From Candidatus Shapirobacteria bacterium (GTDB taxonomy: Bacteria > Patescibacteriota > Microgenomatia > PFEM01 > JAPLYW01): a DNA stretch of 32,331 nt. The position numbers were made by a program, and so were the translations under genes. The stretch covers positions 1-32,331 of the forward strand of contig JAPLYW010000005.1 of assembly GCA_026395335.1 (NCBI GenBank), given 5' to 3'. A model generated the notes under the pieces. The model did no database searches, was not told where the DNA came from, and saw only the letters and a program-made list of their open reading frames with translations. How positions within the stretch are numbered: position 1 is the first letter of the stretch; the number at the start of each line of letters is the position of its first letter. Shown here one piece after another: positions 1,631 through 23,626 of the stretch.

Positions 1631-1662
1631 AAACAAGGTTCTGTCGTTTCGACAGGTCCTTA
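1631..1662 (-). repeat. Dispersed hairpin element, copy 1 (groES-groEL spacer)
   Basis: Minus strand reads TAAGGACCTGTCGAAACGACAGAACCTTGTTT, 31/32 identical to 23579-23610. Confidence 0.95.
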
Positions 1663-1671
1663 TATTGTACT

Positions 1672-1995
1672 TTACTTAATAACCGCTAAAATATCTTCAA
1701 ATTTTACAAAAATATATTCCTTGCCAATCATTCCAAACTTGACTTCATCTCCGCCCCATTTTTTATAAATCACAATCTCACCAATTTTAAATTCAGGTTC
1801 AATTTTTTTCCCGGAATCAGTAATATGAGGTCCGCCCAAAGCAATAACTTTACCTTTTTGTGATTTCTCGTCATGAGTATCCGGAAGAACAATTCCTGTT
1901 GCTGTCTTCTTTTCCATCTCCACCGGCTCAATTAAAACATAACCAGCCATTGGTTTTAATTTTGGCAGAGAACTAATATTTTCCATTTTTGACAT
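1672..1995 (-). CDS. groES: Co-chaperonin GroES
   Basis: [12 protein letters not shown]...TATGIVLPD...GKVIALG...[10 protein letters not shown]...EDILAVI is the Cpn10 signature. Start could be 1986. Confidence 0.97.
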
Positions 1996-5637: not shown

Positions 5638-6312
5638 CTACGATTTCCAGTTTGGTAAGAATTTTTTGTACCATTGGTTCTCCTTTGAAAATTTTTGATA
5701 AACTTTTTCTCTTTGCCATAAAATTTTTAATTGACAAATTTCATGGGCTGTAAAAAGGTTTTGCTCAGATTTAGGAAAAGCTAAATGCTTTTCGTCTAAA
5801 AACATATTAAGACAAATTTTATCCTTAACTTTTTTATCTCCAGGTCGCCTTCGCTTTGAAACTAATTCTATTAAAAAAATTGTTAATAAGCGGGTTAACC
5901 AAAGTCTTTTTTGCCCAGTAATAATCAGTAAATCAATATCGTCATTTTCATCAGCATTCTTCATAGCTAAGTTACCAGTAACACTCACCATTTTAATAAA
6001 AGGGATTAATCTTAACCAATTAGCAACCTCCTGAGCTATTTTGGTTTTTTCCTGACTCCATTTAAATCGTTGAAGTCTTTGTTGAATAATTTTTTGGCGG
6101 TTTTTAAAACAATAAAAACCATCGTGATATGTGATATGTAATACAAGATAAGAATCTTCATTTAATTGCTTCCGTATCTCGTTTTGCGTCTCACGTCTTA
6201 CGTTGCCCGTATCACTTATTAAAAATTTATGGATTTCTTCCAAAGTTAACGGGTAAGCAAAAACATCAGCATAGGCTAATGTTTTTAAAATCTTTTCCTG
6301 AAACTCGACCAT
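5638..6312 (-). CDS. Nucleotidyltransferase-fold protein (CPR-type family)
   Basis: VSVTGNLA...DDIDLLII fits the Pol-beta-like G[SN]-x-DxD pattern; also KICLNMFL and terminal FLPN. ATG at 6312 is preferred because the TTG at 6357 lies inside the repeat element. Confidence 0.75.
   Translation of the reverse strand: MVEFQEKILKTLAYADVFAYPLTLEEIHKFLISDTGNVRRETQNEIRKQLNEDSYLVLHITYHDGFYCFKNRQKIIQQRLQRFKWSQEKTKIAQEVANWLRLIPFIKMVSVTGNLAMKNADENDDIDLLIITGQKRLWLTRLLTIFLIELVSKRRRPGDKKVKDKICLNMFLDEKHLAFPKSEQNLFTAHEICQLKILWQREKVYQKFSKENQWYKKFLPNWKS
6123..6214. repeat. Two degenerate 7-bp-period arrays inside the CDS
   Basis: CGTGATA TGTGATA TGTAATA CAAGATA (6123-6150) and CGTATCT CGTTTTG CGTCTCA CGTCTTA CGTTGCC CGTATCA (6173-6214). 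Confidence 0.8.
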
Positions 6313-6351
6313 AAATTTTTTTTCTATTTTGATCCGCCAGTTAGCGGAGAG

Positions 6352-6383
6352 AAACAAGGTTCTATCGTTTCGATAGGTTCTTA
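6352..6383 (-). repeat. Dispersed hairpin element, copy 2
   Basis: Minus strand TAAGAACCTATCGAAACGATAGAACCTTGTTT. Its two differences from copy 3 are a compensatory G-C to A-T stem pair. It is followed by a TCCGCTAACTGGCGGA hairpin. Confidence 0.95.
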
Positions 6384-7976
6384 CTTTGAATTTCCCAAAT
6401 CGTATTGGGAAAGAAGCTGTTTGACTCCTTGACTGGTTGTTTTCAAAATATCTGAAGCTGCGGACCCACCGTTTAAAGCATTAACTGCGTCTTCGTAATA
6501 TTTAATCATTTTATCGTTAATGCCATTATCAAAAGTCCCCGAGCAAAGATACCAAGTCTTGGCTTTAGCCGCTTGATTTATAAAAGGAGCCACTAAATTA
6601 TTATTTGTTAATAAACTGGCCATATCGGTTCTGGCATAAGGTTCACCAAATAATCGTACTTGTGACTGAGCTTGATAAAGTTTCTGAAGTTCCTCTTTAG
6701 AAGATAAAAATTTTAAAAAAGCCCAAGCTTCTTGCTGATGAGAGCTCCTTTTACCAATGCCTTCTATCCAAAAAGAAGCCCAGCCAATATCTGTCCCGGA
6801 TAATTGCGGAACAGGAATTACCCGAAAATCTAAATTAGGATTAATATTTTTAATTTCAAAAACATCCCAAGAATAGCCAAAATACATGGCTGTTTTGCCG
6901 GTAGCAAAAGCCAAAGTTGAAACAGGTAAAGTTTCATCCCAGACTCGATCTACATTATTAAAAATGGTATAAAAAGTTAAAGCATCTTCAGCTAAATTTC
7001 CGGTTGGTTGAGATAAATCTACGCCATTTTGTAACATCATTAATCCTAAAATATCAGACCAATGGTCAACGTTACTGGTATTGCCCAAAGCTACACCAGC
7101 CGTTTGAATTCGGCCGCTTTCATCCCGAACTGTCAAGTCCAAAGCTAGTTGTCTTAATTGATCCCAAGTGGTTGGCGGTGTTTTACCGGCAGCTTGAAAA
7201 ATTTGTTGATTATAAAAAAGAGCTAGATTGTCAATCTCAAGGGGTAAACCTAAAAAAGAAGTCCCGGAACGCAAATTTTCTTTAGCCACCGGATAAAAAG
7301 TATTCTCAAACTCCGTTGCACTCATTACTTCTGTGGGAACAGCTTGTAATTCATTTTTTAACATCGGTAACCAAGTAATATGGAAACGAAAAATATCCGG
7401 ACCTTCGTTACGAGCCAAAGCGGACTGTAATCTTTCCCGATATTCTTTCGGAGATTGCTGGGAATAACTAATCTTAATATTAGGATTTTTACTCTCCCAT
7501 TCACTAATAATTTCTTTCATAACATTCTCTGGCTCCCATAAACCCCAATAAGTCAAAGTTATTTGTTTTTGTTTTTGTAAACGAGGAATTAATAATTTAA
7601 AAACAGCAAAACCACCAAAAACCAAGATTATTAAAATTAATAAAATTGTCAGAATTTTTTTAAAACCGAACTTAGGCTTCTCATTCAAATTAAAATCATT
7701 AGACTCGTTAATTAATTTAGCGGCTGCTTCTTCCGGTGAAGAAAAACTTTTTTCTTCCGTCCCAAAATTTTGAGCATTTCCCTCAAAATTTTTTCCAAAA
7801 TCCTGCGTAGAAGAGTTATTTGTCTCAGGAAAAATTGGTTGCGCTTGATAAGAAGGTTGCGGAAAATCATTTTCAACTAGAGGTTTTTCTTCTTTAGGCG
7901 GTAAAGAAGTTTCTTTTTCTTCTGCAGGAAAAGAACTCGTTAAATCTTTTGACGGAAAAAAACTTTGGTCAGGCAT
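6381..7976 (-). CDS. Membrane-anchored extracellular solute-binding protein (family 1, sugar-type)
   Basis: Low-complexity N-terminus, one TM segment, then TLTYWGLWE, GPDIF, LALFYN, PPTTWDQL, FATGKTAMYFG. Confidence 0.9.
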   Translation of the reverse strand: MPDQSFFPSKDLTSSFPAEEKETSLPPKEEKPLVENDFPQPSYQAQPIFPETNNSSTQDFGKNFEGNAQNFGTEEKSFSSPEEAAAKLINESNDFNLNEKPKFGFKKILTILLILIILVFGGFAVFKLLIPRLQKQKQITLTYWGLWEPENVMKEIISEWESKNPNIKISYSQQSPKEYRERLQSALARNEGPDIFRFHITWLPMLKNELQAVPTEVMSATEFENTFYPVAKENLRSGTSFLGLPLEIDNLALFYNQQIFQAAGKTPPTTWDQLRQLALDLTVRDESGRIQTAGVALGNTSNVDHWSDILGLMMLQNGVDLSQPTGNLAEDALTFYTIFNNVDRVWDETLPVSTLAFATGKTAMYFGYSWDVFEIKNINPNLDFRVIPVPQLSGTDIGWASFWIEGIGKRSSHQQEAWAFLKFLSSKEELQKLYQAQSQVRLFGEPYARTDMASLLTNNNLVAPFINQAAKAKTWYLCSGTFDNGINDKMIKYYEDAVNALNGGSAASDILKTTSQGVKQLLSQYDLGNSK

Positions 7977-8029
7977 GATATAAGTTCCCCAATAAATTTG
8001 TCTGTTATACTAATGTTATCATAGACGAA

Positions 8030-9823
8030 ATGAGTAAAAAAATGCAACCAGATAAAAAGAAAATATTAAAATCTTATTTTAAAATAAAAAATTGGTGGCA
8101 ACAAACTTTAGTTTACCTTTTAGCTTTTTTGTGTCTAATTATTTTTATCTATCATTTAGCTTATTGGCAAAAAATTTATCCAGGAGTCAAAATTTTAAAT
8201 CAAATCGTCGGTAATCAAACTGTTTCCGAAGCTATTGACATAATAAACCAAAAATTAAATCTACAAAAAACACCCTCTTTTTTAAATCTTTTTGCTGCCA
8301 AACAGCAATGGCAAATTAATCTTGAAGAGATTAGTTTTAGTTATGATCTAGAAAAAACTGTCCAAAATGCCTATCAAATCGGCAGGACAAAACGTACAAT
8401 TAAAGATCTTAAAACTAAATTTAAACTTTGGTTCAAAGAAGAAAATTTACCTTTAGCTTATCAGTTAAATCAAGATTCTTTAGAATCGCAAGTTGCCAGT
8501 ATCGCTTCACAGGTTTTTATTCCAGCCATTGAACCAACAATTAAAATTGATCGGACCCAAGAAAATCCAAAGATTATTATTGAATCGGGCAAAGACGGTC
8601 AGGAGCTAGATAAAAGAAAATTATTATCTTTAGTTAATAATCATTTAGCAGAAGTTGATTTCAGTTCAATTGAACTCCCTTTAATTGAAACTTCCCCTTC
8701 TTTGACTAACGAAGAAACTAAAAATACTCAACAGCGAGCAGAAAAATTTTTAAACAAAAAGATTGTCATCACCGCTGAAGAAAATAAGTGGGAACTTGAA
8801 GAAAATGACTTAATTGGTTTCCTTTCTTTTAAAAACGAATTTGCTCAAGAAAAAATTGCTAGTTGGACAGCCAATCTAGCGCTAACTGTTAACCGTTTAC
8901 CGGAAAATGCCACTTTCCAATTTAATGGGGGCCGAGCTACAGAGTTTCAACCGGCTAAAGATGGACTAACTCTTGATCAAAAAAAGACTACTGACTTAAT
9001 TACTAAAAGTCTTGAGCAAATTGAGAGAGGAGAAACCCCTCAAGAAATTAAATTACCATTAACTAGAACTCCACCCTTAGTTAAAACTGCAGATGTTAAT
9101 AATTTAGGTATTAAAGAATTACTCGGTAAAGGTGTTTCTTATTTCCAAGGTTCCATTGTCAACCGCATTCATAATATTCAATTGGCGACTTCTAAACTTA
9201 ACGGTATATTAATTCCGCCAGGGGAAATTTTTTCTTTTAACAAAAACTTAGGTGATGTTTCTGCCAGCACTGGTTATAAAGAAGCTTATATTATTAAAGA
9301 AGGACGAACGATCTTAGGTGACGGCGGCGGTGTTTGCCAAACTTCAACGACTCTTTTTCGCGCTGCTCTTCAAGCCGGTTTGCCGATTATTGAACGTCAT
9401 GCTCATGCTTATCGGGTAGGTTATTATGAACAAAATTCACCGGTTGGGATAGACGCAACTGTTTTTGATCCAACGGCTGATTTAAAAATTAAAAATGATA
9501 CTCCCGCTTATCTTTTATTACAAACTCATATTGATTTACAAAAGAAAATGCTGACTTATGAATTTTATGGTACTAACGACGGGCGAAAAGTGACTCTAAG
9601 CAAATCCAGAATCTGGGATCAAACTTCTCCACCGCCGGATTTATATCAGGATGACCCTACTTTACCTAAAGGCACAGTTAAGCAAGTTGACTGGCAAGCT
9701 TGGGGAGCTAAAGTCTCTTTTGATTATCAAGTAGAACGCAGCGGAGAAATTCTTCAAAAACAAACTTTTTACTCTAATTATCGTGCTTGGCAATCAGTTT
9801 ATTTAAGAGGGACCGGCCAATGA
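8030..9823 (+). CDS. VanW family protein with N-terminal TM and putative peptidoglycan-binding region
   Basis: RIHNIQLA...LNGILIPPGEIFSFN...GGGVCQTSTTLFRAAL...ERHAH...GIDATV...DLKIKN. Confidence 0.92.
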   Translation: MSKKMQPDKKKILKSYFKIKNWWQQTLVYLLAFLCLIIFIYHLAYWQKIYPGVKILNQIVGNQTVSEAIDIINQKLNLQKTPSFLNLFAAKQQWQINLEEISFSYDLEKTVQNAYQIGRTKRTIKDLKTKFKLWFKEENLPLAYQLNQDSLESQVASIASQVFIPAIEPTIKIDRTQENPKIIIESGKDGQELDKRKLLSLVNNHLAEVDFSSIELPLIETSPSLTNEETKNTQQRAEKFLNKKIVITAEENKWELEENDLIGFLSFKNEFAQEKIASWTANLALTVNRLPENATFQFNGGRATEFQPAKDGLTLDQKKTTDLITKSLEQIERGETPQEIKLPLTRTPPLVKTADVNNLGIKELLGKGVSYFQGSIVNRIHNIQLATSKLNGILIPPGEIFSFNKNLGDVSASTGYKEAYIIKEGRTILGDGGGVCQTSTTLFRAALQAGLPIIERHAHAYRVGYYEQNSPVGIDATVFDPTADLKIKNDTPAYLLLQTHIDLQKKMLTYEFYGTNDGRKVTLSKSRIWDQTSPPPDLYQDDPTLPKGTVKQVDWQAWGAKVSFDYQVERSGEILQKQTFYSNYRAWQSVYLRGTGQ

Positions 9824-10896
9824 TTATTTTAGGAATTGAAACCAGTTGCGATGAAACGGCCGTGGCAATTATTGAAAATGGGAGAAAAATTTTATCTAAC
9901 ATCGTTGCTTCTTCAATTGAACTTCATCAAAAAACCGGAGGTATTATTCCGGAGATTGCTGCCAGAGAACAATTAAAATATATTGTCCCTGCGATTAAAG
10001 AAGCTTTAGAAAAAAGCAGACTAAAACCTAAAGATTTAGACGCTTTAGCTGTCACCAGCGGTCCGGGTCTTATCGGCAGTTTATTGATTGGCGTCGAAAC
10101 TGCTAAAACTTTAGCTTATCTTTGGAAAAAACCGATTGTACCGATTAATCATTTACAAGCCCACCTGTACGCGAATTTCATTCGCGAGCATCCAGTATCC
10201 AGTAGCCCGCTTTGCGGGATTCCTACAGAATGTCAGTGTCCAGTTTTTCCTGCTATTGGGTTAGTTGTTTCCGGCGGCCATACCGATTTAATTTTAATGA
10301 AAAATCATAGCCAGATAAAATGGCTGGGCGGAACCAGAGATGATGCCGCTGGTGAATGTTTTGATAAATGCGCTCGTTTATTAAATTTAGGTTATCCCGG
10401 CGGCCCGGCTATTGCCGCCACAGCGGCAAAGTACATAGTACATAAAACAGAGAACAAAGTTAAATTACCCAGACCAATGATAAACGACGATAATTTTGAT
10501 TTTTCTTTTTCCGGTTTAAAAACAGCCCTTTTAAGCAGGATAAAAGAATTAGAAAATAAAAAAGTAAAAATAAATACTTATGAAATTGCTTACGAAATTC
10601 AGGAAGCGGTTACTGATGTCTTAGTTAAAAAAGTTCTAAAGGCTGTTTCTCAAAACCAAGTTAACTCTTTATTATTAGCTGGTGGAGTTACGGCTAATCC
10701 CCGCTTAAAAGAAAAAATGAAAGAAGCTTTAGAAAAACAGCAAATAAAGATACCTCTTTTTATTCCTGAGCCAAAATTTTGCACTGATAATGCCACTTTT
10801 GTGGCCAGTTGTGCTTTTTTTAATTTTGAGCCAGTCCCTTGGCAAAAAATCCAAGCTGACTCTAGCCTCGAAATCGAAGAAGTGATAAAATTTTAA
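9820..10896 (+). CDS. tsaD: tRNA N6-adenosine threonylcarbamoyltransferase TsaD
   Basis: MIILGIETSCDETAVA, GPGLIGSL, HLQAH, VSGGHT, TRDDAAGECFDK, FSFSGLKT, CTDN. ATG at 9820 overlaps the VanW stop (ATGA). Confidence 0.97.
   Translation: MIILGIETSCDETAVAIIENGRKILSNIVASSIELHQKTGGIIPEIAAREQLKYIVPAIKEALEKSRLKPKDLDALAVTSGPGLIGSLLIGVETAKTLAYLWKKPIVPINHLQAHLYANFIREHPVSSSPLCGIPTECQCPVFPAIGLVVSGGHTDLILMKNHSQIKWLGGTRDDAAGECFDKCARLLNLGYPGGPAIAATAAKYIVHKTENKVKLPRPMINDDNFDFSFSGLKTALLSRIKELENKKVKINTYEIAYEIQEAVTDVLVKKVLKAVSQNQVNSLLLAGGVTANPRLKEKMKEALEKQQIKIPLFIPEPKFCTDNATFVASCAFFNFEPVPWQKIQADSSLEIEEVIKF
10170..10243. repeat. In-frame palindrome plus heptamer insertion in tsaD
   Basis: CGCGAAT-TTC-ATTCGCG hairpin, then CATCCAG TATCCAG, then CCCGC-TTT-GCGGG and ATTC-CTACA-GAAT, then TGTCCAG. 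Confidence 0.8.
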
Positions 10897-10902
10897 GACA
10901 AG

Positions 10903-12975
10903 ATGGAAAAAAATTACGAACCGCAAAAAACGGAAAATAAAATTTATCAATTTTGGGAAAAGGGTAATTATTTTCAACCAATTTTTGATAAAAAGAAAAA
11001 GTCTCAAAAACCTTTTGTGATTACTCTCCCCCCGCCCAATGTTACCGGCGAACTTCATTTAGGCCATGCTCTTTATTGTTTAGAAGATTTAATGATCCGC
11101 TATCATCGTATGTTGGGTGAGCCAACCTTATGGTTACCGGGCTTTGATCATGCTTCTATTGCTGTAGAATACCTAGTCAATAAACAATTAAAAAAAGAAG
11201 GAACTAATAAACAGTATATCGGCCGGGAAGAATTCTTAAAAAGAGCTAAAGATTTTGCTGATAAATCAAAAAGCCATATTAAAAATCAATTAATATCTTT
11301 AGGTTTTTCTCTAGATTGGACACACGAAGCCTATACCATGGATGAAAAACGATCCTTGGCAGTTAAAGAAGCTTTTAAAAGACTTTATGAAAAAGGTTTA
11401 ATTTATCAAGGTGAAAGGATTATTAATTGGTGCTCGAAATGCCAGACCGCTTTATCTGATTTAGAGAATGATTATCAGGAAGAAAAAGGAATTCTTTATT
11501 ATATAAAATACGGCTCCATAACCATTGCCACAACTAGGCCGGAAACAATGTTTGCTGATGTCGCTGTCGCAGTTAATCCTAAAGATAAACGTTATTCAAA
11601 ATTAATTGGCAAAAAAGTTTCCTTGCCATTAACTAATCGCAAAATTCCTATCATTTCCGATGAATCCGTTGATTTAAAATTCGGTACCGGAGCGTTAAAA
11701 ATCACTCCCGGCCACGATCCTTTGGATTTTGAAATCGGTCAAAAACATAAACTAGAAATACTAATCGTAATTAACACCAAGGGCCATTTAACTTCTTTAG
11801 CCGGAGATTATCAAAACTTAACTGTTAATGAAGCTAGAGAAAAAGTTGTTGCTGAATTAAAAAAACAGGGATTGTTAGAAAAAACTCAGGAATTTCAACA
11901 CGCAGTTGGCCATTGCCAAAGATGTGGAACAATTACTGAACCTTTAATATCTAAACAATGGTTTGTTAAAACTAAAACGTTAGCTAAACCAGCTATTGAA
12001 GCGATTAAAAAAGGCAATATTAAAATCATTCCCAAAAAATTTGAAAAAGTTTATTTAAATTGGATGGAAAACATTCGCGATTGGTGTATTTCCCGCCAAC
12101 TTTGGTGGGGACACCAAATTCCAATTGAAGATGAAACTGATGTTTTAGATACTTGGTTTTCTTCAGGACTTTGGCCTTTTGCCACTTTAGGCTGGCCTGA
12201 AAAGACCAAAGATTTAGAAAATTTTTACCCAACTACAGTCAGAGAAACTGCTTACGATATTTTATTCTTTTGGGTAGCCAGAGAAATTATGATGAGTCTA
12301 TTTTTAACCGGTAAAATCCCCTATGAGATCGTTTATCTCCATGGATTAGTTCGTGATAAACAAGGCCAAAAAATGAGCAAAACTAAAGGCAATGGTTTAG
12401 ACCCGTTGGAACTAACCCAAAAATATGGAACGGATGCCTTAAGAATGGCTTTAATTGTCGGAAATGCTCCGGGAAATGATTTTTCTCTAACTGAAGACAA
12501 AGTAAAAGCTTATCGTAATTTTGCCAATAAAATTTGGAATGCGAGCCGGTTTATTCTTTCATACGAACAGCAGAACATAGTGTCCCGCGAAGCGGGATCC
12601 CGCTCCGCGGGACAAAGAACAAAGAGCATAGGAAAACATAAAGACGACATTTGGATTTTGGAAGAAACAGAAAAAGTTATTAAAAAAGTCACTAGTTTTA
12701 TTAACCGTTATCGTTTTGATTTGGCAGCGGAAACTATATATCATTTTTTCTGGCACACTTTTTGTGACCAGTATTTGGAAATAAGTAAAAAGAGAAGAGA
12801 TGAAACCCAATTAACTTTAATACAGGTTTTAGAAACTTCTTTAAAATTACTTCACCCTTTTATGCCTTTTTTAACTGAAGAAATTTGGTGCCGAATGAAA
12901 AATATTTCAGTTGAGCATTCTCGAGACAAAGCGTCGGGACAAAAACCCCTTATTATCACCTCATGGCCAAAATGA
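10903..12975 (+). CDS. valS: Valine--tRNA ligase (compact form)
   Basis: PPPNVTGELHLGH, ATTRPET, GTGALKITPGHD, DWCISRQLWWGH, DVLDTWFSS, KMSKT, LLHPFMPFLTEEIW. Confidence 0.97.
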   Translation: MEKNYEPQKTENKIYQFWEKGNYFQPIFDKKKKSQKPFVITLPPPNVTGELHLGHALYCLEDLMIRYHRMLGEPTLWLPGFDHASIAVEYLVNKQLKKEGTNKQYIGREEFLKRAKDFADKSKSHIKNQLISLGFSLDWTHEAYTMDEKRSLAVKEAFKRLYEKGLIYQGERIINWCSKCQTALSDLENDYQEEKGILYYIKYGSITIATTRPETMFADVAVAVNPKDKRYSKLIGKKVSLPLTNRKIPIISDESVDLKFGTGALKITPGHDPLDFEIGQKHKLEILIVINTKGHLTSLAGDYQNLTVNEAREKVVAELKKQGLLEKTQEFQHAVGHCQRCGTITEPLISKQWFVKTKTLAKPAIEAIKKGNIKIIPKKFEKVYLNWMENIRDWCISRQLWWGHQIPIEDETDVLDTWFSSGLWPFATLGWPEKTKDLENFYPTTVRETAYDILFFWVAREIMMSLFLTGKIPYEIVYLHGLVRDKQGQKMSKTKGNGLDPLELTQKYGTDALRMALIVGNAPGNDFSLTEDKVKAYRNFANKIWNASRFILSYEQQNIVSREAGSRSAGQRTKSIGKHKDDIWILEETEKVIKKVTSFINRYRFDLAAETIYHFFWHTFCDQYLEISKKRRDETQLTLIQVLETSLKLLHPFMPFLTEEIWCRMKNISVEHSRDKASGQKPLIITSWPK
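12581..12614. repeat. 34-bp GC-rich near-perfect palindrome in frame in valS
   Basis: TGTCCCGCGAAGCGGGA|TCCCGCTCCGCGGGACA with one mismatch, flanked by GAACATA, GAACAAA and GAGCATA heptamers. Confidence 0.9.
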
Positions 12976-13619
12976 CATACGAGAATAAAAGAGTTCACTC
13001 CGAGAGTTCACTCCGAGGAGCAAAAGAACAGGAGAGTAAAAAGAGGAATCCTTGGATTTTAAACAAAACTCAAGCTATCCACCGAGTAATGAAACCTATG
13101 GCCGCCAGAATCGGACGCCGGCTAGGTCCTAGCGGCATAGTTTTAGTAACTTTATTAATTATTGGTTCTATTGTTTATCCAAAAGATGAAACCCAAAAAA
13201 TTAAACTCCAATTGATAAATAATCCTTACGATTTGGAAAGCCATTTAAAATTAGCAGAAAAATTTTTACAAAATCATCAATTTACTGAAACAGAAAAAAC
13301 TTTATTATTGACAAAACAAATAAATCACTATTCATTAGCAAACAATAAAGTTCTTGAGGAAAGAACAAATGTAAATTTAGAAAGAATATGGCAAGAAAAA
13401 AATTTATCCGATCCTCAAGATATTAAAAAGCTTATTTCTTCTTGGGAAAAAATTATAGAAGCTAAACCGGATTATCGCGATGGCTATCTTCAACTGGCAG
13501 TTCTTAATTTTAAGCTTTCACAAAAATAAAAAGCAAATTTTTATTTGAAGAAGGCCTTGGAAATTGATCCTAATTTTATAACCAGCCAAAAATTAAAAGA
13601 AATTTTTACTCAGTCTTAG
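12963..13619 (+). pseudogene. TM + TPR protein with an in-frame TAA at 13527-13529
   Basis: The frame continues past the stop: PDYRDGYLQLAVLNFKLSQK*KANFYLKKALEIDPNFITSQKLKEIFTQS*. This is one TPR split by the stop. True start may be ATG at 13089. Confidence 0.7.
12991..13016. repeat. 13-bp tandem duplication
   Basis: GAGTTCACTCCGA x2, followed by GGAG. Confidence 0.85.
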
Positions 13620-14301: not shown

Positions 14302-14313
14302 AAAACTATCTTA

Positions 14314-16773
14314 TCATTTTATAAGACTAAATTCAAAGACTAAATCTTGATCAAAACTAGGACTGAGAAAAAGTCCTTCGGTTGTTTGAGCAAACTTTAA
14401 TTTATCGACCAAAGCTGTAACACCTATTGACGGTTGAAGCCAAAAGTTAAAACTCTCATCTTGAATCCCAGGTTGTTTTTGTAGAAAAAATAAATAATGA
14501 CCAATCTCTGATTCCCATTTTTCATCTAACTGATAAACAATCTCTACTGAACGTTTTTCTTGAATTGGAACCTCTATTAAAAATCCAAAAACCTGATAGT
14601 TATGATCTTGTTTTATCTCTCTATCGGTAATTTCTTCTACCTGCCCTGTTTGATTATTAGTAACTTTTAAGCTTATTAATTTACTATTTAATGGAGTATA
14701 AAGTCTAATATAGCTTTTATAACGACCAGCTGGAAAAGCTTCTGAAGGCGATGTATTTTGGTAATCAAGACGTAAAGTTTCTTTAATATCTCCATTTTCT
14801 TCTATTTTTATTTGATGAGAAAGGCTTCTTTTTAAAAAGTAATTGGCTTTATTAATTCCAACATTTGCTTCTATCACCATTAAATAGTCATTTAAACACT
14901 TCGTGTTTGTTACCTGGCACCTAACATTTTTTATCTCTCCTCCCCATGCCAACTCTTGAGCGATCAGTGTCGCTTTATCATCATAAAACCATAAAATTAA
15001 ATCTTTAGCCTTTAAAGAAGGTAATAAATTTTTAGCTAAGCCAAACCAAATTTTCTGATCACCCTGTTTAATTTTTTCAAACAAAACACGAGCAACACTG
15101 CCCAAAAAATCTTGCTTTTGAGTTGAACCTGGGAAAAAATTAATCTCCGAATGGTATTCAGCTCTTTCAAAAAAATTGTCAGCATTAATTTTTTCTTGAT
15201 AATCAGGTAGTTCTATCTCGCCGATTGATTTTAAAATCCGCTGGGCTAAAAACAAATTGACGCCAATTACCCCATCAACTTTTCGACCGGTTTCCTTCTC
15301 CAAAAACCAAGCTGCTTTCAAAGCTGATGAAGGGAAATCAGGATCCCAGTTAGAATCACGAAAATACCAACCGGCTTCACCTAAATATTTTTTCAAATCT
15401 TCCGGCGGCTCAACATGACCTTTTAATTGTCCATCAGCGCTATAAACGTCTTTAATCTCAAAATCCACTAATTGGCCTTCATCAAGAGTTAAAAGACCAA
15501 AACTACCGATAAAACCACCGGTCGGCCGTAACTCACTATTATTTTGGAAAAGAATTAAATAAGTCTGTTTTTTCTCTAAACCAATTAATGAAGGCAAAAG
15601 TTCAATCCCCTTTCTGGCTTGAAGAATAAGATCTCTAGCTTCTTTTAATTGTTCTTTCTCCGGCCGATCACCTATTTGGCTTTCTGCTAAAGAAAGTTGG
15701 CTAAAACTTTGGTCCAGATTAATTTTTATCTCTTTAATTGAGCTATCAATAGACAACGGTTCTTTTTGAAAAATAGATTTTAGGAGACCTTCTAATTGCA
15801 ATGTCGCCTGTAAAAAATTATCAAGACCTTCCGAAACCGTCTCTCCTAAATTTAACAATTTGTTTAATTGTGTTGTTTTCTCCTGACTGAAAAAGTTTAA
15901 AAGTGGGGTTATTTGCCCTAACTGCTCTTCACTTTTCTGAAAAGAATTTAAGGCCGTATCAGCCTGATGGCTGGCTTTTAATAAATTCCCTTGAGTTAAA
16001 GAATTTTTCGCTTGCTTTAAATTTTGTACGCCTAAAAGGCTCCAAAAACCTAAAGAAAGAAAAGGGTAAAAAATTGCTAAAATTAGTAAAGTAATTAAAA
16101 AAGAAATGACGGCTTTTTTGGAAAAAACTTTTGGCAAAATGGGCTTTTTTATTTCTAATTTTTCTTTTTTCGGTTGGTCTTTTAATTGAAAGGATTTCTC
16201 TAATTCCTCTAACCCTTGACTTAGATCAACTTTAGTTTGCCAACCAAGATTTTTATTATTTTCTAAAAGAAAAAATGATTTACCCTTAGTTCCATTACCA
16301 AACATAGCTTTTAACAAACCATAAATAAAATCAGAAATAAAAATCGCTTTTTCTTTTATCGTCCCATCTAAATGTAAGAATTTTTGGTACTCCTTTAAAA
16401 CCATCCCCGGACCATAAACATAAGCAAAACGAATGATTCTAACATTAAGTTTTTTTTCAAAAGATAACTGAATAATTTTATCTTCTAAAGAATCTTTTTC
16501 TGATAATGATGGCAAGGCAAAAAGAAGTTTCGCTTGTGGAGAAACAGAGTCAAGAACTTCTTTGATTAAAACCCAATTTTGATGAAAACAAAAAACATAA
16601 TTGCCTTTTTTAAAAACTTCTAAATCTAAATTTCTAGTAAAAGAAATTGATTGGCAATTGTACAAAAGCAAAGCTTTGTTTAAAAATTCATTGACAAAAT
16701 TTTCTCCGCCAACAATTAAAACTAAAGGTTTTTCTTGACTCTCGCCAACTCTGTGAAAAATTTTATCATTCAT
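14314..16773 (-). CDS. DUF4012-domain membrane protein with a degenerate N-terminal epimerase-like region
   Basis: YLILFQNNSELRPTGGFIGS, RDSNWDPDFP, VDGVI, NVGINKANY; TM segment near residues 220-245. Confidence 0.85.
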   Translation of the reverse strand: MNDKIFHRVGESQEKPLVLIVGGENFVNEFLNKALLLYNCQSISFTRNLDLEVFKKGNYVFCFHQNWVLIKEVLDSVSPQAKLLFALPSLSEKDSLEDKIIQLSFEKKLNVRIIRFAYVYGPGMVLKEYQKFLHLDGTIKEKAIFISDFIYGLLKAMFGNGTKGKSFFLLENNKNLGWQTKVDLSQGLEELEKSFQLKDQPKKEKLEIKKPILPKVFSKKAVISFLITLLILAIFYPFLSLGFWSLLGVQNLKQAKNSLTQGNLLKASHQADTALNSFQKSEEQLGQITPLLNFFSQEKTTQLNKLLNLGETVSEGLDNFLQATLQLEGLLKSIFQKEPLSIDSSIKEIKINLDQSFSQLSLAESQIGDRPEKEQLKEARDLILQARKGIELLPSLIGLEKKQTYLILFQNNSELRPTGGFIGSFGLLTLDEGQLVDFEIKDVYSADGQLKGHVEPPEDLKKYLGEAGWYFRDSNWDPDFPSSALKAAWFLEKETGRKVDGVIGVNLFLAQRILKSIGEIELPDYQEKINADNFFERAEYHSEINFFPGSTQKQDFLGSVARVLFEKIKQGDQKIWFGLAKNLLPSLKAKDLILWFYDDKATLIAQELAWGGEIKNVRCQVTNTKCLNDYLMVIEANVGINKANYFLKRSLSHQIKIEENGDIKETLRLDYQNTSPSEAFPAGRYKSYIRLYTPLNSKLISLKVTNNQTGQVEEITDREIKQDHNYQVFGFLIEVPIQEKRSVEIVYQLDEKWESEIGHYLFFLQKQPGIQDESFNFWLQPSIGVTALVDKLKFAQTTEGLFLSPSFDQDLVFEFSLIK

Positions 16774-16810
16774 AAATTCAATTTTTACATAACTAATGTG
16801 AAAAGCAGAA

Positions 16811-17254
16811 CTAATAAGTTTCTTTGTCTAAAGTTTGATTGACTAAACTATCTGCCTGATAATTTTTTGACCGAGGAATAAAATTATAAAAAATTTTAGC
16901 AGTAACTTTTTTTTCTAACTCTCTGGTTTTAACAATTAAACTTTTCAATTTAAAATCTTTAATTTTATATAAACCATTCAGTTGGCAAACAACTAATTTA
17001 GAGTCTAAATAAAAGTTTATTTTTCTCTTATCTGTTTCATCAATTAAATTGGTAACCAACCAAGATAAGGCTTCAATAACTGCTTGATATTCAGCGACAT
17101 TGTTAGTTGTCGGTCCAAGATATTTCCCAAAACTAGCTAAGATTTTTTCTTGTTGGTTTTTAATGACAACACCAATAGCCGCCGGCCCGGGATTACCTCT
17201 AGCACCTCCATCAGTAAAAATAATTAAATCATTTTTTCCATCTAAATTTGTCAT
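16811..17254 (-). CDS. rnhA: Ribonuclease HI
   Basis: FTDGGARGNPGPAAIG, TNNVAEYQA, DSKLVV, IPRSKNYQADSLVN. Confidence 0.93.
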   Translation of the reverse strand: MTNLDGKNDLIIFTDGGARGNPGPAAIGVVIKNQQEKILASFGKYLGPTTNNVAEYQAVIEALSWLVTNLIDETDKRKINFYLDSKLVVCQLNGLYKIKDFKLKSLIVKTRELEKKVTAKIFYNFIPRSKNYQADSLVNQTLDKETY

Positions 17255-18577
17255 TTAAAAAATTTTACCTTTCTGTTTAATTAACTGCATTAAAGTTTTT
17301 GGAAAACCAAATAAAGAAGGGACAACACCAATTGTTTTATAAATAAAAATGCTAGTAGCAATTAAAACTAAAAATTCTGTAGCTACAGTTATCATCGCCG
17401 CTCCCCAATAAGAAAAATAAGGAATAACAATTAAGTTTAAAACAACATTAAAAACCAAAGCAGAAAAAGCTATAAAAAAATAAGAGTTTTGTTTTTTTAA
17501 ACTAACTAAAGTATAACCGGTTAAATGATTAAAATAAGAAAGAAAAATAGCAAAAGATAAAATCCTTAAAATAGAAATCGTGTCAAAAAATTCTCCAAAA
17601 CGGTTTAGGGTTAAAATCCTAATAATTAATGGGGAACCAAAAAAACCGAATAAAAATATTATTAATCCCATTATCAGTAAAACATCAAAAGATTTTTGAT
17701 AAATAATTTTAAATTTATTACGCCAGTCGTCTTTTGTCGCGTATTGGGAAATAACCGGTAATAAAGAACTCATTAAATAAGCTGCCCCTAAAATTAAAAC
17801 ATCATAAACACGATAAGCGACCGCATAAATTCCAACTGCGTCTGCTCCTTTTAAGTAGCCCAACATTACCGTATCGATTTTATTATCAACCGTAAACATT
17901 AATAATACTGCTCCCATTGGTAGAGACTCAAACAAGAAATTTTTTATAAATTGTCTATCAATTTTGAGATGAAAACGGATTGTCTTAACAGCTAAGAATC
18001 CAACCGTAAAAACCGCAACAATATTAGCTATTAATATCGCTCCGATTAAAGCCATTAAACCTAAATGCATTTTAATAAAAATCCAGGAAATTAGAAAAAC
18101 CAAAGCGCTGGCTAAAATATCAGCTACTGCTAATTTTTGCATCTGCATCTTTGTTTGGAAAATTAAGCCAAAAGAAGCCTTAATCGCAAAAAGGATTAAA
18201 ATTAAAGAACCTAATAAAATCCCCTGACGAATAAGCAGATAATTAGAAATCCCTAGCGGCAGCAAAAAAGCCAATCCAATCATTAAACAGGCTCCAAAAA
18301 AAGCTAGGACTAAACGGATAAAAAAAACATTAACTAAAATTTCATCTTGTTTTTCTTTAACCCTAGAGGCTTCCCTAACCCCAATTGTGGCTGTTCCCCA
18401 ATCAGAAAAAGCACCAAAAATAGTTACTAAAGTTAAAATATACATGTAGTTACCATAACCTTCGCGACCCAAAGAAGAGGTCAATAAAATCATCGTCGCC
18501 AAGCCAAAACAAACAGTAACGATTTTAGTGACTATTTGGATTATGGTATTAAGGGCAACCTTTTGCGAAAGATGCAT
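17255..18577 (-). CDS. Wzx-like polysaccharide flippase
   Basis: Multi-TM protein with KVALNT, LGREGYG, IDTVML, VGIYAVAY, LNLIVIPYFSYWGAA. Confidence 0.9.
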   Translation of the reverse strand: MHLSQKVALNTIIQIVTKIVTVCFGLATMILLTSSLGREGYGNYMYILTLVTIFGAFSDWGTATIGVREASRVKEKQDEILVNVFFIRLVLAFFGACLMIGLAFLLPLGISNYLLIRQGILLGSLILILFAIKASFGLIFQTKMQMQKLAVADILASALVFLISWIFIKMHLGLMALIGAILIANIVAVFTVGFLAVKTIRFHLKIDRQFIKNFLFESLPMGAVLLMFTVDNKIDTVMLGYLKGADAVGIYAVAYRVYDVLILGAAYLMSSLLPVISQYATKDDWRNKFKIIYQKSFDVLLIMGLIIFLFGFFGSPLIIRILTLNRFGEFFDTISILRILSFAIFLSYFNHLTGYTLVSLKKQNSYFFIAFSALVFNVVLNLIVIPYFSYWGAAMITVATEFLVLIATSIFIYKTIGVVPSLFGFPKTLMQLIKQKGKIF

Positions 18578-18597
18578 AAATCAATTATACCCGCTCT

Positions 18598-19878
18598 TTA
18601 ACTTAATTTCGACCAAGACAAACCAAGAACAATAGTTAAAAGAAGCTGATTTTGTTGAAGAGTTAACCAATAATGGTCATTCAGCCCTAAAAACAACACC
18701 GTTGTTAACCCCAATATTAAGACTAGATAAGAAGACAATAAACGACTAAACAATCTACGATAAGTTAAGATTAAAAACCAAACAAAAATAATCAATCCGG
18801 TAAATCCAGTTTCTGCAGCTATAAGAAAATAAATATTATGAACCGGTTGTAGCCAATAAGTAAAACCGACTAAAGACCAATAATCAGGAAGACGAGTAAT
18901 AAAATTATTTAAGCCAACTCCCGACAAAGGAAAATTTCTAATCATTAGTAAAGCTGACTCCATTAATTGTTTTCTTTGGGAAAAAGCTTCATTAGTAGAA
19001 AAATAGGGGACAACAACAATTAATAAACAGCTAAAAAGAAAAAATAAAGAAGAAATAAAAAAAAGCTTTTTCTTTTGAAAATGATTTTTATGAATTATAA
19101 AATAAAAAACGGCCATTAAACTCAAAAACCAAACCGAGCGAGAGAAACTAACAATTATGGTTAATCCCCCTAAAATAAAAGCCAAGTATTTAATCGACTT
19201 GATTACTTTATTTTTTCCCACCGACCAATTACTTAATAAAATTAAACTTACTAGAAGAAAACCAGCCAAAGCATTAGGATGAGCAAAAATCCCATAAGGC
19301 CGCAAAACTAACCGACCATTAAGAATAGTTTTAGCAATTCCCGGAGTAGCTAAATCAAAAGTTCGTTCTCCCAACCACCAGAAAATACCGTTTAAAGAAC
19401 CTTGTTTTAAAAACTGGCCTAAAGCAATTAAAGAAGAATAGACTACTGCCCCGGCAAGTGGATACTGGATATAAGGAAACCTTGTTTCTCGAAGCTCGAA
19501 ATTAGATACTGGATACTGATTCTTAGCGATATAAAATCCAAGCAGGGTAAACTCAACGATTTTGGCAAATTTATAAAAGGCTACCCCTTGGTTTTGAGCT
19601 AAAAAAGCATTGACCAAAAGAAAAACAAAAATTGTAAAAACCCACCAGCAGCTCCTTAATATCTTACGTATTACATATCTCTTATCACGTATCCCCCAAA
19701 CCCACAAGAATAAAATTAAAAAAACTAAAATGTCGGTTAAATAAAGAGTAGGAGATAAATAATCAACTTTTAAACCTAAAACATAACTCCAATTTGGCCA
19801 AAAATGTTTTCCTAGCTGAAAAGGTAAAAGCAGTATTAATAACCAAAAAAAATTCTGATGAAGCTTTTTTTTAAACAT
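18598..19878 (-). CDS. O-antigen ligase/polymerase (Wzy_C) family membrane protein
   Basis: RPYGIFAHPNALAGFL, SFSRS, PLSGVGLNNF, PVHNIYFLIAAETG. Confidence 0.88.
   Translation of the reverse strand: MFKKKLHQNFFWLLILLLPFQLGKHFWPNWSYVLGLKVDYLSPTLYLTDILVFLILFLWVWGIRDKRYVIRKILRSCWWVFTIFVFLLVNAFLAQNQGVAFYKFAKIVEFTLLGFYIAKNQYPVSNFELRETRFPYIQYPLAGAVVYSSLIALGQFLKQGSLNGIFWWLGERTFDLATPGIAKTILNGRLVLRPYGIFAHPNALAGFLLVSLILLSNWSVGKNKVIKSIKYLAFILGGLTIIVSFSRSVWFLSLMAVFYFIIHKNHFQKKKLFFISSLFFLFSCLLIVVVPYFSTNEAFSQRKQLMESALLMIRNFPLSGVGLNNFITRLPDYWSLVGFTYWLQPVHNIYFLIAAETGFTGLIIFVWFLILTYRRLFSRLLSSYLVLILGLTTVLFLGLNDHYWLTLQQNQLLLTIVLGLSWSKLS
19469..19502 (+). repeat. Dispersed element, copy 4: 'empty' form lacking the central hairpin, antisense within the CDS
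   Basis: ATATAAGGA|AACCTTGTTTCTCGAAGCTCGAAAT aligns to copy 1 ATATAAGGA[CCTGTCGAAACGACAG]AACCTTGTTTTTCGGAGACTCAAAAT. Flanked by GATACTG heptamers. Confidence 0.75.
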
Positions 19879-23560: not shown

Positions 23561-23578
23561 TATTATATAATAATAAAA

Positions 23579-23610
23579 TAAGAACCTGTCGAAACGACAG
23601 AACCTTGTTT
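23579..23610 (+). repeat. Dispersed hairpin element, copy 3 (dnaN leader)
   Basis: TAAGAACCTGTCGAAACGACAGAACCTTGTTT, ending 16 nt before the dnaN ATG. Confidence 0.95.
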
Positions 23611-23626
23611 TTTTGTAAACAAAAAA

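What the first reader, a model, noticed from the sequence alone, without database searches (positions are those of the whole stretch)
6123..19694. Degenerate 7-bp-period arrays in frame within unrelated genes, in recurring families
Seen: a CGTATCT-type family at 6173-6214 (6 units, 42 bp) and 19660-19694; a TATCCAG family at 10189-10243 (tsaD) and 19461-19518 (ligase); a GWACAWA family at 10431-10458 (tsaD) and 12573-12630 (valS); TGTGATA at 6123-6150; weaker arrays near 14897-14935, 2072-2091 and 31218-31245. Each shared family has the same orientation relative to the coding strand. Period 7 cannot come from codon or protein repeats, and the encoded peptides look odd (e.g. LVLHITYH, IRDKRYVIRKI). 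Inference: a DNA-level process deposits heptamer tracts that survive in permissive loops. I recall similar tracts in other CPR genomes but know no mechanism.
Basis: partly seen in the sequence, partly recalled or inferred. Interest (0 to 1): 0.75.

Follow-up and report, generated by a model that had tools for sequence, protein, structure and literature searches.

The report
Heptamer repeats and repeat insertions in genes
Short runs of 7-base repeats inside ordinary genes of this tiny-genome bacterium are real, but they belong to a known bacterial repeat bias, and three of them mark places where the genome's own hairpin repeat was inserted in frame.

Summary
The window has 9 such runs; 0 of 200 codon shuffles and 0 of 200 synonymous shuffles reach 9. 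The excess recurs in the rest of the 458-kb genome and in relatives.

It is not one heptamer-depositing process. (a) Four tracts (6123-6150, 6173-6214, 10427-10459, 19660-19694) are local, decayed heptanucleotide microsatellites in poorly conserved loops. This is the coding-region form of the known, unexplained heptanucleotide-repeat excess of bacteria. (b) Three tracts (tsaD 10187-10244, valS 12571-12631, Wzy 19461-19518) are lineage-specific in-frame insertions. Their cores are pieces of this genome's dispersed junction repeat: a GC hairpin or a 33-nt unit. Each insert is flanked by a heptamer present three times, which makes the added length a multiple of three.

Recurring families and shared orientation are not significant.

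This scan has reported both phenomena before: heptamers inside genes in other CPR genomes, and the junction repeat on other pieces of this genome. Across 15 genomes, heptamer excess rises with the number of Y1 (RAYT-like) transposase genes. That is an untested lead.

The parts
6123..6150 (-). Heptamer microsatellite in a conserved hypothetical gene (5638-6357). The sense units are TATTACA TATCACA TATCAC. It coincides with a 7-aa (21-nt) insertion.
   Evidence: TRF finds period 7, 2.9 copies, 92% matches. Lag-7 score is 11. A 7-8 aa gap appears in all 5 relatives aligned. There are no dispersed copies at E<=0.05.
6173..6214 (-). Degenerate six-unit array (CGTNNNN on the + strand) in the same gene, in a variable segment 2 aa longer than in relatives.
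   Evidence: Lag-7 identity is 0.60 and the score is 10. Alignment. Identity to G003 is 19% across the run.
10187..10244 (+). tsaD insertion of about 15 aa. It reads ATCCAGT x2 (10190-10203), GC hairpin CCCGCTTTGCGGG (10206-10218), then a third TCCAGT at 10239-10244.
   Evidence: The insertion is absent from the 3 same-family relatives, and the loop is an insertion hot spot in other lineages. It is gapped against solved TsaD structures. The flanking repeat has spacings 7, 41 and 48. pLDDT is below 50.
10427..10459 (+). Heptamer array CAAAGTA CATAGTA CATAAAA CAGAGAA in a variable tsaD loop, with no length gain against the closest relatives.
   Evidence: Lag-7 score is 14. Alignment. In the model it is coil after helix 194-203. 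There are no dispersed copies.
12571..12631 (+). valS insertion of 12-14 aa. It reads AGAACA (12571-12576), two tandem 15-nt hairpin units TCCCGCGAAGCGGGA / TCCCGCTCCGCGGGA (12583-12612), then ACAAAGA x2 (12612-12625).
   Evidence: Gap in all 4 relatives aligned. It is 13 aa longer than the T. thermophilus ValRS loop. Hairpins. A 19/20 match to another in-CDS hairpin insertion on C7. Repeat spacings are 44 and 7.
19461..19518 (-). Insertion of 10 aa in an O-antigen-ligase-like (Wzy_C) gene. The core at 19478-19504 is one junction-repeat unit. It is flanked by CAGTATC in three copies, including an 11-nt direct repeat TATCCAGTATC.
   Evidence: Gap in all 5 relatives. Matches of 21/21, 25/26, 24/25 and three of 17/17 to junction units on other contigs. 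Spacings are 7, 44 and 51.
19660..19694 (-). Degenerate heptamer array (sense GATACGT GATAAGA GATATGT AATACGT) in a basic loop between membrane helices. G000 is not longer than its relatives here.
   Evidence: Lag-7 identity is 0.64 and the score is 11. Alignment. There are no dispersed copies.
31198..31244 (-). Heptamer array (sense GAATGGA GAATTGA GAATGGG ...) between two called ORFs. It has a 21-nt identical copy on contig C4.
   Evidence: Lag-7 score is 14. Sequence read. Exact copy at C4 29463-29483.
1628..1672 (-). Intergenic junction-repeat hairpin (AAGGTTCTGTCG-TTT-CGACAGGTCC type), one of three in the window.
   Evidence: Repeat family D1/I1. It shares the AACCTTGTTT core with 36 sites in the genome.
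6349..6393 (-). Intergenic junction-repeat hairpin, second copy, directly upstream of the gene that holds two heptamer tracts.
   Evidence: A 13/13 match to the Wzy insertion core.
23573..23617 (+). Intergenic junction-repeat hairpin, third copy, followed by a T run.
   Evidence: 95% complementary to 1629-1666.

Best explanation
Two DNA-level processes are superimposed in this window.

(1) Heptanucleotide microsatellites. Short tandem duplications with a bias for 7-nt units arise locally, most likely by strand slippage at replication. They persist in coding DNA only where the segment is tolerant, no stop codon is made and the net length change is a multiple of three. They then decay by point mutation into the degenerate arrays seen at 6123-6150, 6173-6214, 10427-10459, 19660-19694 and 31198-31244.

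(2) In-frame insertions of the genome's own dispersed junction repeat. Pieces of this repeat sit in loops of tsaD, valS and the Wzy-like gene. The pieces are a GC-rich hairpin of the form CC[CG]GC-N3-4-G[CG]GGG, or the 33-nt unit AACCTTGTTTCTC...CTCGAAAT. Each insert is bounded by a short direct repeat. One extra tandem copy of that heptamer brings the added length from 41 or 44 nt (2 mod 3) to 48 or 51 nt (0 mod 3).

Shown: the excess, its DNA-level nature, the insertions, and their membership of the dispersed family. Inferred: slippage as the cause of (1), and the order of events and frame restoration in (2).
For: Excess of lag-7 runs:
- Window: 9 runs, against a shuffle mean of 1.3-1.5; 0 of 400 shuffles reach 9.
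- Whole genome, score 12 or more: 29 runs, against 3.7 (codon shuffle) and 11.8 (synonymous shuffle), 10 shuffles each. This is the highest ratio among lags 2-24.
- Outside the window: 25, against 6-13.

Perfect five-unit arrays lie in conserved enzymes on other contigs: (TCAATTA)5 in an FAD oxidoreductase-like gene, (AATATCA)5 in a GT2-like gene, and (ACCAATC)5 in a cysteine desulfurase-like gene.

Lag-7 runs lie in the least conserved protein segments. Residue identity to G003 is 39%, against 61% overall, the second lowest of lags 2-24 and lowest among lags with 10 or more runs (lag 19: 0.37, 9 runs) (31 runs).

Relatives also show the excess: G024 (34, against 8 or fewer, at score 14), G003 (16, against 3-12) and others. 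Units are diverse and many sit in long open frames.

In print: heptamers are the most abundant long-SSR class, with a polymerase-slippage hypothesis (passages).

Junction repeat:
- CCGCCAGCTGGCGG occurs at 11 sites in G000 and 0 in the samples of G003, G008, G010 and G024.
- There are 24 hairpins of this type in G000.
- CCCGC-N3-GCGGG occurs 5 times, where I estimate about 0.09 from the word counts.
- 7 in-CDS copies at 6 loci lie in G000-specific gaps.
- Further unit insertions lie at C2 14629 and C19 14744.
- The Wzy core matches junction units at 21/21 and 25/26.

Frame arithmetic: three insertions whose flanking-repeat spacing is a multiple of three (63, 45, 30 nt) have no tandem heptamer. 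The three with spacing 41, 44 and 44 each have one.
Against: No copy-number difference at a heptamer tract was listed in the strain contigs laid. A contig of run X11 with 23 substitutions spans 5759-6426 without a gap. Slippage is therefore not observed directly.

Only 3 of 31 lag-7 runs overlap a clear insertion relative to G003.

G008 shows no heptamer excess, so the bias is lineage-variable. A universal polymerase property does not predict that.

The tsaD hairpin has no dispersed match at E<=0.05. Its assignment rests on the motif alone.

For Wzy the net gain against relatives is 30 nt, not the 51 nt that the flanking-repeat model adds. The ancestral state is uncertain.

Confidence: 0.7

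Rival explanations
1. One dedicated element or enzyme makes or carries the heptamer tracts. A candidate is the Y1 (HUH, RAYT-like) transposases of these genomes. On this view the arrays are footprints or cargo of transposition, not polymerase slippage.
For: G000 has 3 Y1_Tnp genes above the Pfam cut-off. Its 3 same-family relatives without the hairpin repeat have none.

Across 15 genomes, the Y1 gene count correlates with lag-7 excess. Spearman is 0.66 for the ratio and 0.76 for the excess per 100 kb.

In G024 the arrays form a dispersed element of about 230 bp that ends in a GGTGTCAACCTA hairpin. That hairpin resembles the flanks of a G000 Y1 gene.

The three window insertions have heptamer direct repeats that look like target duplications.
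Against: Units differ from array to array within each genome.

G034 has the highest ratio with one Y1 gene. G003 has a mild excess with none.

Related genomes are not independent and only part of each genome was sampled, so the p-values overstate.

As far as I recall, IS200/IS605-type Y1 enzymes make no target duplication.

The Y1 genes are flanked by hairpins other than the junction hairpin.
Confidence: 0.13
2. The arrays are selected features. They could be contingency loci that switch genes by frameshifting, or peptide or RNA motifs with a function of their own.
For: The same reading frame (ATA GTR CAT = I-V-H) recurs in TsaD, ProRS and DprA arrays of the CATAGTR type. Perfect five-unit arrays exist in three enzymes.
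Against: The hosts are housekeeping genes. The window arrays are degenerate and their length is unchanged in a 3-4% diverged strain contig. The tracts map to disordered or variable loops. The shared frame follows from the TAG that the other two frames of CATAGTA meet early, which I worked out from the sequence. Unit families are near chance.
Confidence: 0.07
3. Chance plus a reader's eye. In an AT-rich 32-kb window, some 20-40-nt stretches will look 7-periodic.
For: Two of the ten named places fail and three are periodic over only part of their span. Global lag-7 autocorrelation is flat. Several high-scoring runs are A- or T-rich low complexity (19033-19062, 16145-16171).
Against: 0 of 400 shuffles reach the observed count. 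The excess replicates outside the window and in other genomes. Among runs with at least 25% G+C, lag 7 has 19, against 0-9 for lags 4, 5, 8, 10, 11, 13 and 14.
Confidence: 0.03

Closest known systems
Heptanucleotide long simple-sequence repeats of prokaryotes. Source: Mrazek, Guo and Shah 2007, seen only as summarised in the Introduction of PMC4679880 and in passages of PMC4692102.
   Same: Tandem head-to-tail 7-nt units are over-represented relative to other unit lengths of 5-11 nt. Units are diverse. Polymerase slippage is the proposed origin.
   Different: Here 49 of 64 runs lie inside coding sequence and most are short (2-5 units) and decayed. The cited summary says that coding regions mostly hold units whose length is a multiple of three. 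I did not read the 2007 paper itself.
Single-unit dispersed heptamer families: TAACTGA of Beggiatoaceae, Cyanobacteria and Bacteroidetes (PMC4679880; abstract and sections 3 and 15 read); GGGAATC and GGGGAYT of Xanthomonas and Nostoc (PMC4692102, passages); GGGACCG x4 at 49 inter- and intragenic sites in Geobacter metallireducens (PMC2700814, passages); Calothrix STRR (cited in PMC4692102).
   Same: Period-7 direct repeats with no accepted mechanism. Some copies lie within ORFs at tolerant positions.
   Different: Those families have one dominant unit per genome and are mostly intergenic. G000 has many unrelated units. The ~230-bp composite element of relative G024 is closer to them. The supplements of the Geobacter paper, which hold the alignment of its 49 elements, could not be seen.
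Rickettsia palindromic elements (RPE; Ogata et al. 2000; recalled, no paper read here).
   Same: A dispersed palindromic repeat of the genome is found in frame inside conserved protein genes. It is absent from orthologues and sits in surface or loop positions.
   Different: The inserts here are 13-60 nt, against the roughly 100-150 nt I recall for RPEs. The source repeat is a gene-junction element that also forms tandem stacks.
REP/BIME elements and their RAYT (Y1 HUH) transposases. Their features are recalled.
   Same: Short GC-rich hairpins amplified at gene junctions. Y1_Tnp genes are present in the same genome.
   Different: The best NCBIfam RAYT scores are 33-51 bits, against a cut-off of 80. 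The GTAG head is seen only at the tsaD copy. The Y1 genes are flanked by other hairpins.

Membership tests
Heptanucleotide long SSRs (Mrazek-type) | Head-to-tail copies of a 7-nt unit | tested here: met
   TRF gives period-7 rows at 6124-6143, 10190-10204 and 10430-10444. Units are laid out. Perfect 5-unit arrays lie on C7, C26 and C19.
Heptanucleotide long SSRs (Mrazek-type) | More or longer runs than chance, and more than other unit lengths of 5-11 nt | tested here: met
   Lag 7 has the highest observed/shuffled ratio of lags 2-24. At score 12 or more it has 29 runs, against 10-14 for lags 5, 8, 10, 11 and 13.
Heptanucleotide long SSRs (Mrazek-type) | Unit-number instability (slippage) between strains or reads | tested here: inconclusive
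   Only assembled contigs of 4 runs could be laid. No unit-number change was listed at the tracts that the contigs bridged. 6 indel rows were not shown. No raw reads were available.
Single-unit dispersed heptamer families (TAACTGA, GGGAATC, STRR) | One dominant unit sequence repeated at many loci of a genome | tested here: not met
   21 non-low-complexity consensuses are almost all different. 13 pairs lie within 1 mismatch, against 6.7-8.2 expected.
Single-unit dispersed heptamer families (TAACTGA, GGGAATC, STRR) | Mostly intergenic, often just upstream of start codons | tested here: not met
   49 runs in CDS, 6 at gene edges and 9 intergenic, of 64. The genome is 91% ORF by my crude map.
RPE-like in-frame palindromic insertions | The insert belongs to a dispersed repeat family of the same genome | tested here: met
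   The Wzy core has 7 matches at E<=0.05 and valS has 1. The hairpin family has 24 copies. For the tsaD copy the evidence is the motif only.
RPE-like in-frame palindromic insertions | In frame in a conserved gene and absent from orthologues | tested here: met
   This holds for tsaD, valS, Wzy and 6 further loci on C2, C7 (two loci), C19 (two loci) and C26.
RPE-like in-frame palindromic insertions | Located in a surface or loop position of the protein | tested here: met
   In the TsaD model (mean pLDDT 89.4) the insertion is coil with pLDDT below 50. This was tested for TsaD only.
RPE-like in-frame palindromic insertions | Element length of about 100-150 bp (recalled) | tested here: not met
   Inserts here add 24-63 nt.
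REP/RAYT system | A RAYT-type Y1 transposase gene in the genome | tested here: inconclusive
   3 ORFs are above the Pfam Y1_Tnp cut-off. They score 33-51 bits against the 80-bit cut-off of NCBIfam NF047646.
REP/RAYT system | Repeat = GT[AG]G head plus imperfect palindrome (recalled definition) | tested here: not met
   Of 24 hairpins, only the tsaD copy is preceded by GTAG. The usual left flank is TTGTTTCTCT.
REP/RAYT system | Transposase gene flanked by the repeats it moves (recalled) | tested here: not met
   Two of the three Y1 genes are flanked on both sides by their own hairpins, which differ from the junction hairpin; the third shows one only on its right. One junction-hairpin insertion lies about 370 nt from the C7 Y1 gene.

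The most novel reading that the evidence does not exclude
The heptamer duplications next to repeat insertions are not incidental. Insertion of junction-repeat pieces, possibly by the RAYT-like Y1 enzymes, leaves a short direct repeat of the target. In genes, only those events survive in which an extra 7-nt copy (1 mod 3) repairs the frame. More broadly, the heptamer excess of this CPR class would scale with Y1 transposase load, so the long-unexplained bacterial heptanucleotide bias would have a mobile-element cause in these genomes.
Probability: 0.15. Interest if true: 0.7.

Novelty: new member of a known kind. Interest (0 to 1): 0.4.

Why it matters
It shows concretely how conserved enzymes of ultra-small CPR bacteria acquire lineage-specific loop insertions, by two routes. 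One is decayed 7-nt microsatellites that rewrite tolerant segments. The other is in-frame capture of the genome's own junction repeat.

Both routes create odd peptides that annotators could mistake for errors or for functional motifs.

The frame arithmetic (41 or 44 nt plus 7) and the cross-genome link between heptamer excess and Y1 transposase genes give a testable handle on the heptanucleotide-repeat bias. One of the papers read (PMC4692102) says it has had no detailed study since 2007.

Tried and rejected
I replaced it with local-run counts.
- The TRF period histogram for the whole genome shows 49 period-7 rows against 48 period-8 rows. With 3 or more copies it is 22 against 12. TRF's score threshold confounds unit length with copy number, so I did not use it as the test.
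- An Rfam gathering-threshold scan of the window and three G024 loci found only tRNAs and a tmRNA, and nothing at the arrays.
- Insertion overlap across the genome: 3 of 31 lag-7 runs overlap gaps of 4 aa or more against G003. That is similar to lags 6, 8, 12, 18 and 24, so 'tracts are insertions' does not hold as a general rule.
- The unit-family test is near chance.
- An approximate search for further copies of the 31225-31244 array found only the C4 copy.
- Strain contigs were fragmentary. Places they did not bridge say nothing. No heptamer-number variant was listed.
- A 7-nt target-duplication model for the other in-CDS insertions (C7 11480, C19 14202, C19 14744, C26 14829) found no clear flanking repeat.
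- The idea that the Wzy insertion is a simple tandem duplication of 44-51 nt is rejected. Its interior matches junction units, not its own flank.
- Stop-codon avoidance as the reason for shared orientation is rejected. By my own translation, ATCCAGT and AGATACG arrays are open in both orientations, so with 2 loci per family orientation carries no information.

Full report
**What is there**

The window is contig C25 of a 457,599-base, 30-contig assembly with 34% G+C. The assembly is reported as 93.6% complete and reads as densely coding under table 11.

- a conserved hypothetical gene (5638-6357, minus strand; no Pfam family);
- tsaD (9787-10896);
- valS (10903-12975);
- an O-antigen-ligase-like Wzy_C gene (18598-19878, minus strand);
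- a DUF4012 gene (14314-16773).

**Check of the observation**

Laid out in sevens, the named stretches show lag-7 identities of 0.40-0.76. I used a local score (+1 match, -1 mismatch). 7 of the 10 named places hold a run of score 10 or more. One scores 9. Two (14897-14935, 2072-2091) have none of 8 or more.

The window has 9 lag-7 runs of score 10 or more, against 0-5 for lags 4, 5, 8, 10, 11, 13 and 14. None of 200 codon shuffles and none of 200 synonymous-codon shuffles reach 9 (means 1.26 and 1.46). Synonymous shuffles keep every protein sequence, so the periodicity is a property of the DNA, not of the peptides.

The hypothesis came from this window, so the independent test is the rest of the genome. 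At score 12 or more, lag 7 has 25 runs, against 6, 10, 13, 10, 10, 10 for lags 4, 5, 8, 10, 11, 13. Against 10 codon shuffles of the whole genome, lag 7 gives 29 observed against 3.7 expected (11.8 with synonymous shuffles). This is the highest ratio of lags 2-24.

The simple genome-wide autocorrelation at lag 7 is flat. Among runs with at least 25% G+C, lag 7 has 19, against 0-9 for the other out-of-frame lags. Six of those 19 are in this window, so the window is a local hot spot.

**Perfect arrays elsewhere in the genome**

Other contigs carry perfect five-unit arrays inside conserved enzymes:
- (TCAATTA)5 in an FAD-oxidoreductase-like gene;
- (AATATCA)5 in a family-2 glycosyltransferase-like gene;
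- (ACCAATC)5 in a cysteine-desulfurase-like gene.

The gene names are my reading of the translations. I ran no family search on them.

Aligned to the same-family genome G003, the first two overwrite homologous segments with almost no length change: FNYQLSIINYQLF against FNLK-AIIDSYFF.

**Conservation of the segments that hold the runs**

Over all 31 lag-7 runs in G003-aligned genes, residue identity is 39%, against 61% overall, the second lowest of lags 2-24 after lag 19 (0.37, 9 runs). 11% of their bases lie in gaps, against 1.6% overall. Only 3 of the 31 overlap a gap of 4 aa or more. Heptamer runs therefore mark fast-evolving segments, and only sometimes insertions.

**The window tracts one by one**

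- tsaD-1 (10187-10244) is a roughly 15-aa insertion. It is absent from all three same-family relatives and lies in a loop where other lineages carry independent insertions. It is gapped against solved TsaD structures. In an AlphaFold2 model (12-sequence alignment, mean pLDDT 89.4) it is a coil with pLDDT below 50.
- tsaD-2 (10427-10459) and Wzy-2 (19660-19694) are in variable loops and add no length.
- hyp239 6123-6150 coincides with a 7-aa insertion, which is exactly three heptamers. 6173-6214 coincides with a 2-aa difference.
- valS (12571-12631) is a 12-14-aa insertion.
- Wzy-1 (19461-19518) is a 10-aa insertion absent from all five relatives.

**A second phenomenon inside three tracts**

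The tsaD and valS insertions contain GC-rich hairpins of the form CCCGC-N3-GCGGG. The genome has five of these. From the counts of the two arms I estimate about 0.09 by chance.

They belong to a wider family, CC[CG]GC-N3-4-G[CG]GGG, with 24 copies in G000. Eleven copies are the perfect palindrome CCGCCAGCTGGCGG, which is absent from the samples of G003, G008, G010 and G024.

Ten copies are intergenic, typically as ...AACCTTGTTTCTCT-hairpin-ATC(A/G)AAAT(G), just before a start codon. Five lie at the 5' ends of my over-extended ORF calls. Seven copies at six loci lie inside G000-specific gaps of conserved proteins. They are read in all three frames, as PPAGG, IRQLAE and S-R-x-A-G.

The valS tract is in fact a 15-nt tandem pair of such hairpins. 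It matches the hairpin insertion on contig C7 at 19 of 20 bases.

The Wzy insertion core (19478-19504) matches the hairpin-less 33-nt form of the same junction repeat at 21/21, 25/26, 24/25 and several 17/17. That unit stacks in tandem at gene junctions. It contains an internal CTCGAAG/CTCGAAA repeat, which contributes to the lag-7 score.

Further in-frame unit insertions lie at C2 14629 and C19 14744.

Earlier notes of this scan describe the same junction repeat elsewhere in this genome, in prepilin leaders, in the rpoA-rplQ spacer and at secD-secF. I saw the prepilin-leader copy at C30 37487 myself.

The four remaining in-gene tracts and the DUF4012 place have no dispersed copies at E<=0.05.

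**Flanking repeats and frame**

In each of the three window insertions, one heptamer occurs three times: twice in tandem and once across the insert.
- tsaD: TCCAGTA, spacings 7 and 41.
- Wzy: CAGTATC, spacings 7 and 44, with an 11-nt exact repeat.
- valS: AGAACAT, spacings 44 and 7.

The totals are 48, 51 and 51 nt.

Three other insertions with clear flanking repeats have spacings of 63, 45 and 30 nt. These are already multiples of three, and none has a tandem heptamer. Four insertions show no clear flank repeat.

This fits a history in which an insertion of length 2 mod 3 was rescued by one extra heptamer. There are two cautions. The three cases were picked for their periodicity. And the Wzy net gain is 30 nt, not 51. 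I hold this as a hypothesis.

**Families and orientation**

Unit similarity between arrays barely exceeds chance. The shared ATCCAGT of tsaD and Wzy is a 12-nt identity between two two-unit arrays. I cannot tell whether it is chance, a target preference or part of the insert.

Orientation agreement rests on two loci per family. The A-rich CATAGTR-type arrays lie mostly in sense orientation. I attribute this to the purine-rich coding strand of AT-rich genomes, which is inference.

**Relatives**

Lag-7 excess varies across relatives.
- It is strong in G024, but there about a dozen copies of a ~230-bp intergenic element built of heptamer blocks account for much of it.
- It is mild in G003 and absent in G008.
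- It is strong in G023, G025, G034, G035 and G038, with diverse units, many of them in long open frames.

G000 has three Y1_Tnp (IS200-like, RAYT-like) ORFs, and its three same-family relatives have none.

Over 15 genomes (120-458 kb each; the counts of Y1 genes come from whole-genome searches), Y1 count and lag-7 excess correlate. Spearman is 0.66 and 0.76. Related genomes are not independent. G034, with one Y1 gene, has the highest ratio. G003, with none, still shows some excess.

**Strains**

Only assembled contigs could be laid.
- A contig of run X11 with 23 substitutions spans 5759-6426 without a gap, so both hyp239 tracts have the same length in that strain.
- The same run shows paired +1/-1 differences at 19470-19504, that is, a diverged Wzy insert.
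- A near-identical contig of run X9 carries an extra 30-nt GC-rich in-frame insertion in valS behind 12193, bounded by GGCCTG on both sides.

Insertion of GC-rich pieces into genes is therefore polymorphic. Heptamer unit number was not seen to vary.

**Comparison with what is known**

The Introduction of PMC4679880 and passages of PMC4692102 report that Mrazek et al. 2007 found heptanucleotide repeats to be the most abundant long-SSR class in most genomes. They also report the suggestion that 7 nt matches the DNA segment held by the polymerase. I did not read the 2007 paper.

Single-unit heptamer families are described for Beggiatoaceae and Cyanobacteria, for Xanthomonas and Nostoc, and for Geobacter.

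My two full-text searches for heptamer repeats in bacteria and in the Candidate Phyla Radiation found no paper on heptamers in CPR genes (4 papers; 2 papers, both on Borg repeats). A third search on simple sequence repeats in prokaryotic genomes returned 4 papers, none on CPR.

This scan has reported heptamers inside CPR genes in several other genomes.

**Verdict**

The finding is real but ordinary in kind. It is a new member of the heptanucleotide-repeat phenomenon, combined with RPE-like in-frame insertions of a junction repeat that this scan has already noted in this genome.

Noticed in passing
window 27943-28062: A perfect 60-bp tandem duplication (1.9 copies, 95-100% identical) lies inside the 922-aa ORF 25790-28558 on the minus strand. 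It is in frame (20 aa x 2).
   Followed up: no
window 10903-12975 and 12963-13529: valS ends after 690 aa, and a 188-aa ORF with no Pfam or NCBIfam match overlaps its end. The same-family relatives G002 and G003 also have open frames of 679-683 aa, so the short ValRS looks conserved and not like a sequencing error.
   Followed up: partly
window 31187-31371: This 'intergenic' stretch has an open frame, in another phase than ORF 31372-32163, that runs to a TAG at about 31220 and ends ...SNGELRMGN. Its last 21 nt are identical to C4 29463-29483, where they follow an ATG (MANGELRM...).
   Followed up: partly
window 12193 (valS), run X9: A near-identical strain contig (1 other substitution over 466 nt) carries a 30-nt GC-rich in-frame insertion bounded by GGCCTG on both sides, within the conserved LGWPE region of ValRS.
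   Followed up: no
G000 C30 6770-6900; C4 29100-29200; C18 5380-5520: The junction repeat forms tandem stacks of 33-41-nt units (AAG.AAGMCCTTGTTTCTC-x-TCGAAAT), with the GC hairpin as an optional module. One stack lies upstream of a tRNA cluster.
   Followed up: partly
G000 C15 5035-5721, C7 11849-12523, C17 2151-2933: Three Y1_Tnp (RAYT-like) ORFs of 224-260 aa with an HUH-like NHFHFLL motif. Two of the three are flanked on both sides by their own hairpin repeat (AAGGCCWGGCCTTGTGAAG; GTGTCAACYTA..CCACATCCGATGTGT). The C7 gene lies about 370 nt from an in-frame junction-hairpin insertion.
   Followed up: partly
G024 C1 57176-57403, 321397-321597, 106217-106368 and about 9 more (loci L051-L070): A dispersed intergenic element of about 230 bp is made of successive heptamer blocks (GTAAGTA, GATTTAT, GAATTAT/GGGGTAT, AAAAGTC ... 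AATTTTG, ACTTTTG). It ends in a GGTGTCAACCTAAGACACC hairpin. It lies between divergent genes or tRNAs, often near CCCGCC-N3-GGCGGG hairpins.
   Followed up: partly
G000 C17 7227-7261 (ProRS-like), C17 15004-15049 (DprA-like), window 10427-10459 (tsaD): Three unrelated proteins share an I-V-H-[SK] peptide because each has a CATAGTR-type heptamer array read in the same frame.
   Followed up: partly
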